From positions 1-54,851 of IMG/VR virus record IMGVR_UViG_3300027733_001467: a DNA stretch of 54,851 bases; one strand, written 5' to 3'. The notes under the pieces are model-generated. The model saw only the letters and a list, made by a program, of their open reading frames with translations, was not told the origin of the DNA and ran no database searches. The number at the start of each line of letters is the position of its first letter. Position 1 is the first letter of the stretch. The DNA is from a virus (lineage: Duplodnaviria > Caudoviricetes). Of this stretch, positions 7,070 to 7,885 are shown in pieces. A program made the translations under genes and the position numbers.

Positions 7070-7885
7070 ATGAAACTTTCAGAGTGCATAATCGTATCTA
7101 AAGAAATTAAAGATAAGTTTATTCTAGCTAAAAATAGAGATAGAGCTTATAATCCATCTTTAGAAATCGTACATACTATCATTGATGGTGTGGAAGTTGC
7201 ATATCTACATGATTTAATAACGGATTGGAGTGAGGGTTTAAACGAAAACGGAATTGGTGTTGTAAACTCAGCATTACTAGTTGGACACGATGAAGCTGAG
7301 GCTAAGCTTGTAAAAAAAGCTGGTAAACCTGGGCCTGATGGTGATAAGATGAGAAACATCATTAAGCAACCTACTCTAATTGATGCAGTAAGAGCTGCAC
7401 TTAAATATAAGGGTAAGAGTGGATTATCTCTTAAAGGTCATACATTTGTATCATCTCCAAAACATATGGTTAGTATTGAAACTACATCAAAGCATAAGCC
7501 TGATGTTAAACTTCAAAACTCCGAATCACCTGTTGTTCGTACAAATCACGGACATATGTTCACAGATGCTGGATATACAAGCGGTGAGAAATACCTAAGT
7601 TCAAAAATGAGAAAAATATCAGCAGAGAAATCGGTTGATAAAGTAGAGGATTGGAAAGCAATAGCACAGGCTATGAGAAAAGAATACTTTCCAAAGAAAC
7701 CTCAATTGAATATGAAAAGAGATACGGAAGAAATGTCTACATCATCTCAAACTGTAATGAATCTGACAGACCGTATATTACAAATAACTTACTTTAAGGG
7801 TAAGGTAAACGAATTCAAAGGTATTAATAGGAAACTACCTGAAGGATATCAACCAAAGATTACAATTGAAGTAATCCCAGTTTAA
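7070..7885 (+). CDS. Ntn-hydrolase superfamily protein (C45 / NRDE-TANGO2-like)
   Basis: C-I-I-V first strand, ILAKNRDR, EGLNENGIGVVNS and RTNH motifs. Confidence 0.75.
   Translation: MKLSECIIVSKEIKDKFILAKNRDRAYNPSLEIVHTIIDGVEVAYLHDLITDWSEGLNENGIGVVNSALLVGHDEAEAKLVKKAGKPGPDGDKMRNIIKQPTLIDAVRAALKYKGKSGLSLKGHTFVSSPKHMVSIETTSKHKPDVKLQNSESPVVRTNHGHMFTDAGYTSGEKYLSSKMRKISAEKSVDKVEDWKAIAQAMRKEYFPKKPQLNMKRDTEEMSTSSQTVMNLTDRILQITYFKGKVNEFKGINRKLPEGYQPKITIEVIPV

What the first reader, a model, noticed from the sequence alone, without database searches (positions are those of the whole stretch)
7070..7885. Ntn hydrolase apparently caged by a 5-aa propeptide ending in the prohead-protease site (MKLSE|C)
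Seen: the presumptive nucleophile Cys6 (CIIV...ILAKNRDR) directly follows L-S-E. Known: Ntn hydrolases need the nucleophile as a free N-terminus, normally exposed by Met removal or autoproteolysis, and gp21-type proteases cut after L-x-E. Inference: a zymogen inactive in the producing cell, activated during head maturation and delivered to the next host as an amidase or peptidase. Its target is unknown; counter-defence is one possibility. I know of no described example of this coupling.
Basis: partly seen in the sequence, partly recalled or inferred. Interest (0 to 1): 0.85.

Follow-up and report, generated by a model that had tools for sequence, protein, structure and literature searches.

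The report
Phage amidase capped by head-protease site
An uncultured T4-like phage encodes an amide-cutting enzyme whose essential first cysteine is hidden behind five residues ending in the cutting motif of the phage's own capsid-maturation protease, so that protease, not self-cleavage, probably switches the enzyme on; no cut has been measured.

Summary
ORF 7070..7885 (271 aa) starts MKLSE|C. It folds with high confidence as a Cys-Ntn hydrolase, and Cys6 superposes on the nucleophile of acyltransferase AAT, NAAA, BSH and PVA. The window also encodes a T4 gp21-type (Peptidase_S77) prohead protease.

Comparative evidence favours cutting by that protease.
- All 96 capped close homologue clusters (of 120) keep [LIVM]-x-E|C with a free middle residue; 23 are plain Met-Cys.
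- All 80 near-identical loci keep M-K-L-x-E|C, with only synonymous changes at Leu and Glu.
- Unrelated ORFs of the same phages carry leaders ending in the same motif.
- A sister clade lives in phages where no S77 protease was found. There the cap is M-x-[KR]-x-[AGS]|C, the same five-residue start as another leader family of those phages.

Evidence against:
- Known relatives of this fold process themselves.
- The cap is shorter than a T4 targeting sequence.
- Met-Cys forms occur in phages that do have S77, so caging is not obligatory.
- The switch between the two cap types is a single event on the tree.

Packaging and delivery remain inference, and the substrate is unknown. This scan noted the same idea earlier on other genomes. 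Verdict: partly supported, a new variant of protease-matured phage cargo.

The parts
7070..7885 (+). Ntn-hydrolase proenzyme, 271 aa (C45/AAT-like Cys-Ntn fold)
   Evidence: ORF; AF2 pLDDT 94.2; Foldseek and VIA matches to AAT, CV2077, NAAA, BSH and PVA; NCBIfam C45_proenzyme E 2.2e-5, 24 bits, below the 85-bit cut-off
7070..7084 (+). five-codon cap M-K-L-S-E (P5-P1); L-S-E matches the L/I-x-E motif of gp21-type proteases
   Evidence: motif from passages of PMC9026906
7085..7087 (+). TGC, Cys6: predicted N-terminal nucleophile (P1')
   Evidence: invariant in the 64-row alignment; superposes on AAT Cys103, NAAA Cys126 and BSH Cys2
7130..7144 (+). K21-N22-R23-D24-R25, conserved active-site motif of the family
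   Evidence: K21, N22, R23 and D24 invariant, R25 in 90% or more
51481..52077 (+). T4 gp21-type prohead protease (Peptidase_S77); its own N-terminus reads MKGLLIE / TKLFE
   Evidence: PF03420 95.5 bits, cut-off 27; phrog_207 head maturation protease E 3.9e-50; N-terminus
6797..7069 (+). upstream 90-aa ORF with leader MIKLTQLNE; its stop codon abuts the Ntn start codon
294..731 (+). ORF with decapeptide leader MISLTKLLKE
736..1044 (+). ORF with decapeptide leader MIKLKNILNE
1041..2267 (+). ORF (GTG start) with leader (M/V)IQLTNILNE followed by a DLRKWFGKGG module; in other phages this module is fused upstream of the Ntn domain (P0157)
42689..45091 (+). 800-aa cytidylyltransferase-like multi-module protein with leader MNELSNFLVE/SILLE; its relative P0145 is fused to the Ntn domain through LEE|C
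53661..54779 (+). head-module ORF (scaffold-like by position and acidic, coiled-coil-like composition; no family hit) starting MASSKLLKE
54804..54851 (+). start of the major head protein gene, cut by the window end: MANFDLSKLME/GKNPQ
   Evidence: the orthologous ORF in L146 hits phrog_138 major head protein, E 1.5e-16

Best explanation
The gene makes an inactive proenzyme. The five-residue cap MKLSE blocks the alpha-amino group of Cys6, which an Ntn hydrolase needs free. The phage's own gp21-type (S77) head-maturation protease cuts after L3-S4-E5 and creates the catalytic N-terminus. The cut most likely happens inside the prohead, so the 266-aa amidase or acyl-transferase travels in the capsid with other leader-bearing cargo and acts early in the next infection. 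Shown here: the fold, the nucleophile position, conservation of the motif, presence of the protease, and shared leaders on unrelated ORFs. Inferred: the cut itself, packaging, ejection and the substrate. The substrate is unknown. Fusion partners in relatives are nucleotidyltransferase, P-loop kinase, RNA ligase and 2H phosphoesterase, which points towards an RNA- or nucleotide-directed takeover or counter-defence toolkit. The confidence of 0.45 is for this full chain including packaging. Cutting by the protease in any compartment (this explanation plus the cytoplasmic rival) stands at about 0.65.
For: 1. Motif. P1 is Glu in 96 of 96 capped clusters and P3 is L/I/V/M in 96 of 96. P2 takes 10 different residues and cap length runs from 3 to 18 residues. 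In 80 of 80 near-identical loci only P2 changes non-synonymously. gp21 cuts after L/I-x-E, and Asp at P1 blocks processing (passages of PMC9026906).
2. Protease. S77 is in the window. It is present in 7 of 16 class-A records, including all 3 that are at least 90% complete.
3. The same motif ends leaders on unrelated proteins. Four window ORFs start M-I-x-L-x-x-(L)-L-x-E. These are 4 of only 10 six-frame matches to that pattern in the window, and all 4 sit on start codons. Thirty such ORFs are listed across 21 class-A sources. The major head protein, the protease and a scaffold-like ORF also start with leaders ending in the motif. In Chryseobacterium phage MA9V-1 the Ntn gene (FLNE|C) is flanked by ORFs starting MSNYINE|A and MKGFFINE|A.
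4. Second lineage. Among 119 representatives where the Cys was located (of 150 listed), 41 are [LIVMF]-x-E, 59 are [KR]-x-[AGS], 15 are Met-Cys and 4 are other. The 59 form one clade. S77 was found in 0 of 14 of their records, including a 100%-complete 375-kb genome. That genome has a ClpP-type head maturation protease (phrog_94, E 1.7e-43) about 4 kb from a portal gene. In those loci M-x-[KR]-x-[AGS] at residues 1-5 occurs in 27 of 264 ORFs, against 2-12 at control positions and 9 of 384 in class-A loci. Ten proteins share a leader M-x-R-x-A-[ST]-E..LE.R[IV]A.LE, and only 4 of their 45 pairs are alike beyond residue 40.
5. Fusions. Class-A relatives join the Ntn domain through [LIV]-x-E|C to modules that are separate leader-bearing ORFs in this window, and these fusion proteins start with 12-15-residue leaders.
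6. The cap is predicted to be flexible: residues 1-3 have pLDDT below 50.
Against: No experiment or virion proteome exists for any member. The MA9V-1 paper reports SDS-PAGE only (passages).
The solved relatives listed as precursor or uncleaved entries (AAT, NAAA, acid ceramidase, PVA) are, as I recall, self-processing. NCBIfam names the nearest family 'autoproteolytic'.
Met-Cys forms arose at least 5 times. They make up 23 of 120 close clusters and sit in phages with S77 (4 of 4 records), so the uncapped enzyme is tolerated in the producing cell.
The change from class A to class B is one event on the tree, so the link with protease type is a single evolutionary observation. Most class-B records are 6-27% complete.
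ClpP-like genes also occur in phages that have S77.
The bare motif [LIVMF]-x-E is not enriched at N-termini of class-A ORFs: 86 of 384 against 75-103 at control positions.
A profile of the class-B leader finds nothing significant inside the class-B Ntn polyproteins.
Acidic P1 residues are, as I recall, known at self-processing Ntn sites (B. subtilis PurF propeptide, glycosylasparaginase); I did not check this here.
Confidence: 0.45

Rival explanations
1. Ordinary self-processing. Like AAT, NAAA or PVA, the folded precursor removes its own cap by an N-to-S acyl shift at Glu5-Cys6. The conserved residues at -1 and -3 serve that intramolecular reaction, and their likeness to the protease motif is ancestry or coincidence.
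For: The nearest family is named autoproteolytic. Precursor or uncleaved forms of AAT, NAAA, acid ceramidase and PVA are the closest folds. Alternating conserved P1 and P3 with a free P2 fits an extended strand lying in the enzyme's own cleft as well as in a protease. Met-Cys forms show that the enzyme needs no partner to become active. Internal copies in giant proteins, with Cys at residues 1034, 1235 or 1558, could cut themselves free.
Against: It does not explain why the cap equals the leader-ending motif of unrelated proteins in the same phage, in two lineages with two different motifs. It also does not explain why Glu and Leu are held by selection in caps only 3-5 residues long while the length varies freely. 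In AAT the residue before Cys103 is Gly102 (recalled; numbering consistent). I recall no solved relative with Glu at that position.
Confidence: 0.25
2. Protease-armed but not packaged. Soluble S77 protease cuts the cap in the cytoplasm late in infection, so the enzyme becomes active in the producing cell once head assembly begins and is never carried in the virion.
For: T4 gp21 alone activates a cytosolic host enzyme in vivo by cutting an I/LxE site in a disordered loop, and soluble lysates from 14 min after infection do the same (Results section of preprint PMC12991175). Met-Cys forms suggest that the enzyme can work in the producing cell.
Against: Relatives carry longer caps that resemble full leaders (MAKKLLNE, MKKDILINE, MTSANNNEFLNE). 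Fusion proteins start with full-length leaders. The gene sits among leader-bearing ORFs.
Confidence: 0.2
3. Other readings. (a) The Ntn protein is itself the peptidase that trims the shared leaders, and its own cap mirrors its specificity. (b) The cap is never removed, and the protein is inactive or works without a free N-terminus.
For: (a) Self-processing proteases often cut themselves at sites like those of their substrates, and class-B phages showed no S77. (b) Nothing specific.
Against: (a) Class-A phages already have the protease known to cut L/I-x-E. Ntn self-cleavage uses the residue next to the scissile bond and says nothing about substrate preference. The Ntn gene lies far from the head module in the window. 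(b) All catalytic-type residues are invariant, and the cap motif is under selection.
Confidence: 0.1

Closest known systems
Phage T4 head cargo with gp21-cleaved propeptides (IPI, IPII, IPIII, Alt; capsid targeting sequence)
   Same: An N-terminal leader ending in L/I-x-E is removed by an S77 prohead protease. Unrelated proteins share the leader, and the cargo is ejected into the host (passages of PMC9026906 and PMC3012670). The window has the protease and a family of decapeptide leaders.
   Different: Here the residue after the cut is the catalytic nucleophile of an Ntn hydrolase, so the cut would create the active site and not merely release the protein. The cap is 5 residues, not 10. No virion data exist.
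Acyl-CoA:isopenicillin N acyltransferase (AAT/IAT), MEROPS C45, Pfam PF03417, NCBIfam NF040521
   Same: Same fold (Z 19-20, rmsd 2.7-2.8 over 215-221 residues). Cys6 falls on Cys103, and the cap falls on propeptide residues 98-102 of the precursor. Class-B relatives pass the Pfam AAT cut-off (30.9 and 25.0 bits against 23.2).
   Different: As I recall, AAT cuts itself at Gly102-Cys103 and keeps the 102-residue chain as a subunit. The window protein has no Pfam AAT hit at E up to 1 and scores 24 bits against an 85-bit cut-off in NCBIfam. Identity is 12-14%.
Bile salt hydrolase / penicillin V acylase (C59, PF02275)
   Same: Cys-Ntn amidases whose nucleophile is exposed by removal of Met or a very short propeptide. 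Model residue 6 falls on Cys2 or Cys1. The Met-Cys forms of this phage family look like them.
   Different: Z is 16-17.5 and there is no sequence-family hit. They are cellular enzymes with no link to a capsid protease.
CBASS CD-NTase activation loops cut by phage prohead proteases (Hobbs and Kranzusch, bioRxiv 2026, PMC12991175)
   Same: An enzyme is switched on by gp21-type cleavage at an I/LxE site in a disordered segment (abstract and Results read).
   Different: That is a host sensor cut in an internal loop in the cytoplasm. This is a phage enzyme with the site placed directly on its nucleophile.
Polyvalent proteins of phages and conjugative elements (Iyer et al. 2017, PMC5512222)
   Same: Relatives of the Ntn domain sit in proteins of up to 2792 aa alongside RNA ligase, PolyA_pol-type nucleotidyltransferase, 2H phosphoesterase, HAD_SAK_1, topoisomerase IB and superoxide dismutase. 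This matches the multi-enzyme, packaged-effector theme of that paper.
   Different: A term search of that paper found 0 occurrences of 'Ntn' or 'N-terminal nucleophile'. The window protein is a single domain.

Membership tests
Cys-Ntn hydrolase superfamily | four-layer alpha-beta-beta-alpha fold | tested here: met
   AF2 pLDDT 94.2; 91 PDB matches at E up to 0.001, led by Ntn hydrolases; Z 16-21 to six Ntn families
Cys-Ntn hydrolase superfamily | nucleophile Cys at the position that becomes residue 1 of the mature chain | tested here: met
   Cys6 is invariant and aligns with AAT 103, NAAA 126, BSH 2 and PVA 1
Cys-Ntn hydrolase superfamily | free alpha-amino group on the nucleophile in the active enzyme | not testable with these tools
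   needs N-terminal sequencing or intact mass
Peptidase C45 / AAT (PF03417, NF040521) | score above the curated family cut-off | tested here: not met
   Window protein: no PF03417 hit at E up to 1; NF040521 24 bits against cut-off 85. Relatives P0148 and P0163 pass PF03417, so this is a divergent branch of the same superfamily.
Peptidase C45 / AAT (PF03417, NF040521) | autoproteolytic maturation | not testable with these tools
   comparative evidence leans against it but cannot decide
T4-type protease-matured capsid cargo | N-terminal propeptide ending in L/I-x-E | tested here: met
   MKLSE|C; conserved in 96 of 96 capped clusters and 80 of 80 loci
T4-type protease-matured capsid cargo | gp21-type (S77) prohead protease in the same genome | tested here: met
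   PF03420 95.5 bits at 51481..52077
T4-type protease-matured capsid cargo | leader of about 10 residues whose N-terminal part carries the targeting determinants | tested here: not met
   The cap is 5 residues. Neighbouring ORFs have 9-10-residue leaders. Some homologues have 7-12-residue caps.
T4-type protease-matured capsid cargo | processed protein present in the virion and ejected | not testable with these tools
   no proteome; the MA9V-1 paper reports SDS-PAGE only
Polyvalent proteins (Iyer et al. 2017) | two or more effector domains in one polypeptide | tested here: not met
   The window protein is a single domain. Relatives of 467-2792 aa meet the feature.
TANGO2 / NRDE (PF05742) | family HMM hit; Met-Cys start and NRDE motif (motif recalled) | tested here: inconclusive
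   No Pfam hit at E up to 1. Structural Z 16.3 to 9bwa, lower than to CV2077, NAAA and AAT. The protein has K-N-R-D-R.

The most novel reading that the evidence does not exclude
A phage-restricted Ntn-hydrolase family has its catalytic cysteine placed exactly at P1' of whichever head-maturation cleavage motif its phage uses. The motif is [LIVM]-x-E in phages with a gp21-type protease and M-x-[KR]-x-[AS] in a sister clade that uses another, probably ClpP-type, protease. Capsid maturation would therefore be the switch that arms an injected enzyme. The enzyme would belong to an exchangeable set of leader-tagged modules (nucleotidyltransferase, kinase, RNA ligase, 2H, HAD) delivered with the DNA as an RNA-repair or counter-defence kit. 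This would be the first Ntn hydrolase activated in trans by a dedicated protease. It would also give a way to read the specificity of unknown prohead proteases from genome sequence.
Probability: 0.4. Interest if true: 0.8.

Novelty: new variant of a known kind. Interest (0 to 1): 0.66.

Why it matters
As far as I recall, Ntn hydrolases mature by self-processing or by removal of the initiator Met. A member armed by a separate, assembly-coupled protease would be a new way of controlling this enzyme class.

It would also be a clear case of a phage using head maturation to switch on an enzyme and not only to trim structural proteins.

The family is abundant: 1114 homologue clusters at E up to 0.001 and 545-550 viral contig hits per scan. 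It is almost confined to phages, and its substrate is unknown.

The two cap types suggest a practical tool. The residues before the conserved Cys may report the cleavage specificity of the phage's maturation protease, including proteases that have never been characterised.

The fusion partners make the enzyme a candidate part of an injected RNA- or nucleotide-directed kit.

The hypothesis can be tested directly with two recombinant proteins and with one cultured phage, Chryseobacterium phage MA9V-1.

Tried and rejected
Sequence-only searches did little to name the protein.
- Pfam gave only a sub-threshold DUF6961 hit.
- PHROGs gave no family.
- The PDB sequence search gave nothing with the single protein or with the 64-row profile.

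Whole-ORF statistics for the bare motif [LIVMF]-x-E showed no N-terminal enrichment in class-A loci: 86 of 384 ORFs against 75-103 at control positions. The bare motif is too common in these AT-rich genomes. Only the longer pattern showed a modest excess (49 of 412 against 27-44), and the exact decapeptide family was clear.

I tried to show that the junction before internal class-B Ntn domains (R-R-V-A...K-x-A|C) is the same element as the class-B leader helix.
- A loose pattern was not enriched over shuffles: 28 observed against a mean of 30.5.
- A profile of the ten leaders gave no significant hit in 59 class-B proteins.
- I therefore dropped that claim. Only the shared five-residue start M-x-[KR]-x-[AGS] is used.

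ClpP as a marker of the class-B protease is not clean. ClpP-like genes also occur in S77-positive records G007, G008 and G014. The two in G007 and G014 carry an in-frame TAA.

Decapeptide-like leaders are rare near the Met-Cys forms (1 of 148 ORFs). That set is small and shows little.

A complex prediction of the S77 protease with the proenzyme gave no verdict.

The protein-atlas search gave leads only: viral clusters, and Bacillota 'conjugal transfer protein' clusters with CBAH/AAT.

Its total count of 26 is not clearly above chance (18.6, sd 4.3; 2 of 100 shuffles reach 26).

Supplementary files of papers were not requested. Any virion proteomics held there was not seen.
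Full report
**What is there.** ORF 7070..7885 on the + strand encodes 271 residues that begin M-K-L-S-E-C-I-I-V and contain K-N-R-D-R at residues 21-25. Its ATG follows directly on the stop codon of the upstream ORF 6797..7069. No alternative start codon lies between the ATG and the Cys codon, so the five-residue extension must be translated.

Sequence libraries barely recognise the protein:
- Pfam gives nothing relevant.
- PHROGs gives nothing.
- PDB sequence searches give nothing.
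- NCBIfam gives only a sub-threshold hit to NF040521, 'C45 family autoproteolytic acyltransferase/hydrolase' (E 2.2e-5, 24 bits against a cut-off of 85).

**Fold and nucleophile.** An AlphaFold2 model built on 64 homologues is confident: mean pLDDT 94.2 and pTM 0.91. Only residues 1-3 fall below pLDDT 50, and the first strand begins at residue 7.

Foldseek ranks Penicillium acyl-CoA:isopenicillin N acyltransferase first (E 1e-9). It is followed by CV2077, bile salt hydrolases, NAAA, penicillin V acylase and a C69 dipeptidase.

VIA-align gives Z 21.3 to CV2077, about 20 to NAAA and 19-20 to AAT. Model residue 6 falls on the first residue of every mature chain: AAT 103, human NAAA 126, BSH 2 and PVA 1. 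Residues 1-5 fall on propeptide residues 98-102 of precursor AAT.

C6, K21, N22, R23, D24, N66, N159 and R181 are invariant across the alignment. This is a Cys-Ntn hydrolase with a five-residue cap on its nucleophile.

**The phage.** The window is a virus record estimated to be 31% complete. It carries:
- a T4 gp21-type prohead protease (PF03420, 95.5 bits; 51481..52077);
- a large terminase subunit and a portal protein;
- a gp25-like baseplate wedge protein;
- the first 16 codons of a major head protein gene (its orthologue in L146 hits phrog_138).

The only named relatives of the Ntn protein among 50,697 phage records are Chryseobacterium phages MA9V-1 and MA9V-2, at 43% identity. MA9V-1 also has an S77 match.

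A pattern scan of one genome from each of 185,579 species found 3 loci, all in metagenome-assembled genomes. On present evidence the family is confined to phages.

**Is L-x-E more than chance?** Yes.
- Among the 120 best homologue clusters (of 1114 at E up to 0.001), 96 have a cap, 23 start Met-Cys and 1 is a fragment.
- In all 96 caps P1 is Glu. P3 is Leu 58, Ile 31, Val 5 or Met 2.
- P2 takes ten different residues, and cap length runs from 3 to 18.
- In 80 of 80 near-identical viral loci the cap is M-K-L-x-E. Leu and Glu change only synonymously, while P2 is S, L, K, T or I through first- or second-position changes.

This is purifying selection on exactly the two positions that gp21-type proteases read. 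Passages of PMC9026906 state that gp21 cuts after L/I-x-E, that in the IPIII leader residues 8 and 10 govern processing, and that Asp at position 10 blocks it.

**Shared leaders in the same phages.** The pattern x-I-x-L-x(2,3)-L-x-E occurs ten times in the six reading frames of the window. Four of those lie exactly on the start codons of ORFs 294, 736, 1041 and 6797: MISLTKLLKE, MIKLKNILNE, (M/V)IQLTNILNE and MIKLTQLNE. The last is the gene immediately upstream of the Ntn gene.

Across the window and 20 class-A loci, 30 ORFs with such leaders were listed, up to five in one locus. Head-module proteins also start with leaders ending in the motif:
- the protease (MKGLLIE);
- a scaffold-like ORF (MASSKLLKE);
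- the major head protein (MANFDLSKLME);
- an 800-aa cytidylyltransferase-like protein (MNELSNFLVE).

In MA9V-1 the Ntn gene (…FLNE|C) sits between ORFs starting MSNYINE|A and MKGFFINE|A.

The bare three-residue motif is too common to be enriched by itself. The evidence lies in the longer shared leaders.

**A second lineage with a second motif.** A search of 1.84 billion representatives found 453 relatives, of which 150 are listed. The Cys could be located in 119 of these. The residues before it fall into three states:
- class A, [LIVMF]-x-E: 41;
- class B, [KR]-x-[AGS]: 59;
- class M, Met-Cys: 15;
- other: 4.

On a FastTree of the domains, built without the caps, the 59 class-B rows lie in one clade of 62 (SH-like support 91). 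The [LIVMF]-x-E state is paraphyletic around that clade. Met-Cys arose at least five times.

The S77 protease was found as follows:

| Cap class | Records with S77 | Notes |
|---|---|---|
| A, [LIVMF]-x-E | 7 of 16 | all 3 records that are at least 90% complete |
| M, Met-Cys | 4 of 4 | |
| B, [KR]-x-[AGS] | 0 of 14 | includes a 100%-complete 375-kb genome and a 222-kb record with terminal repeats |

The complete class-B genome has a ClpP-type protein that hits 'head maturation protease' PHROGs (E 1.7e-43) about 4 kb from a portal gene.

The class-B cap also recurs on other proteins of those phages. M-x-[KR]-x-[AGS] at residues 1-5 occurs in 27 of 264 ORFs of class-B loci, against 2-12 at control positions and 9 of 384 in class-A loci. 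Of the 27, 5 are Ntn proteins and 8 belong to a leader family M-x-R-x-A-[ST]-E..LE.R[IV]A.LE. That helix motif gives 15 hits in 416 kb of class-B loci against 5 in 1.97 Mb of the others.

Ten such proteins were collected, and only 4 of their 45 pairs are alike beyond residue 40. One of them carries three tandem copies of [YH]-R-x-A at its start.

So in two lineages the Ntn cysteine follows the motif that also marks the leaders of unrelated proteins in the same phage. Self-processing alone does not predict that.

**Fusions.** Relatives of the domain occur inside large proteins.
- Class-B examples combine it with RNA ligase, PolyA_pol-type nucleotidyltransferase, HAD_SAK_1, 2H phosphoesterase, topoisomerase IB and Fe/Mn superoxide dismutase. 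Two of them pass the Pfam AAT cut-off.
- Class-A examples combine it with a cytidylyltransferase-like domain and Zeta/AAA_33-type P-loop domains.
- Class-A fusions begin with 12-15-residue leaders.
- They contain modules that are separate leader-bearing ORFs in this window: the DLRKWFGKGG module of ORF 1041 and the nucleotidyltransferase of ORF 42689.
- They join to the Ntn domain through [LIV]-x-E|C.

The domain thus belongs to a pool of leader-tagged modules that resembles the polyvalent proteins of Iyer et al. 2017. A term search of that paper found no mention of Ntn.

**What speaks against the reading.**
- No cut has been measured in any member, and no virion proteome exists. The MA9V-1 paper reports SDS-PAGE only.
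- The closest solved folds appear as precursor or uncleaved entries. As I recall, they self-process.
- Met-Cys forms are frequent, recurrent and present in phages with S77. The uncapped enzyme is therefore tolerated in the producing cell, and a protective 'cage' cannot be a general requirement.
By the T4 precedent the targeting determinants lie further towards the N-terminus, so entry into the prohead is not explained.
- The switch between the two cap types is a single event on the tree, and most class-B records are small fragments.
- My attempt to equate the internal class-B junction with the leader helix failed.

**A variant raised by recent work.** The Results section of a 2026 preprint (PMC12991175) reports that T4 gp21 alone activates a cytosolic host CD-NTase in vivo by cutting Glu sites, including an LPE motif, in a disordered loop. 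It also reports that soluble lysates from 14 min after infection do the same.

Prohead-protease activity is therefore not confined to the capsid interior. A short flexible cap could be cut in the cytoplasm late in infection without any packaging.

**Verdict.** I put about 0.65 on the cap being removed by the phage's own maturation protease. That splits into 0.45 for cutting in the prohead with delivery to the next host and 0.20 for cutting in the cytoplasm only. I put 0.25 on ordinary self-processing and 0.10 on other readings.

Relative to the literature searched this is a new variant of a known kind: T4-type protease-matured cargo in which the cleavage would create an Ntn active site.

This scan had already noted the same idea on at least eight other genomes, with three follow-ups reaching similar verdicts. 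Those notes are not independent evidence.

Noticed in passing
L111 (IMG/VR locus), ORF from 18395, + strand: A class-B leader protein starts with three tandem copies of a [YH]-R-x-A unit (MYRSA-NLYRNA-TMHRSA) before the LE.R[IV]A.LE helix. This looks like redundant cleavage sites.
   Followed up: partly
window 6121-6128 and 7908-7915: TATTTATA lies just upstream of ORF 6148 and just downstream of the Ntn stop, bracketing a three-gene unit (6148, 6797, 7070). The window total of 26 is not clearly above chance (18.6, sd 4.3).
   Followed up: partly
window 4593-6110: A 505-aa ORF with a signal peptide and long Ala-, Ser/Pro- and Lys/Glu-rich low-complexity runs is followed by a beta-rich C-terminal part ending in Phe. 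A neighbouring ORF, 3730-4593, also starts with a signal-like segment.
   Followed up: no
window 50797-51471: An ORF just upstream of the protease starts with a DUF3008-like segment (MPAVSKAQQRFMG), 23.2 bits against a cut-off of 24. The same N-terminal segment hits five PHROGs of different lengths, and it recurs in L095 and L104.
   Followed up: no
L168 (Chryseobacterium phage MA9V-1, OR050627.1 126606-126944): The S77 protease domain of MA9V-1 lies inside an open frame of 1349 aa. It is annotated as a 4,044-bp 'prohead core protein serine protease', so the protease is fused to a large extra region.
   Followed up: no
handles G007 (57578-58084) and G014 (25014-25517): ClpP-like matches in two S77-positive phages each contain one in-frame TAA stop. 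They may be broken genes, split genes or recoded.
   Followed up: no
protein P0163 (1879 aa, metagenomic): A complete Fe/Mn superoxide dismutase (both Pfam halves) is embedded in a giant protein with 2H phosphoesterase, DUF5661, DUF5872 and the Ntn domain.
   Followed up: no
protein-atlas clusters: Bacillota clusters automatically named 'conjugal transfer protein' carry CBAH/AAT domains and score 0.94 by features against the window protein. This is a lead that related Ntn domains also travel on conjugative elements.
   Followed up: no
window 9570-10883: A 437-aa ORF in the baseplate region ends in a Peptidase_M15_3 domain (24.6 bits, cut-off 23.2). It is probably the virion-associated cell-wall hydrolase.
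   Followed up: no
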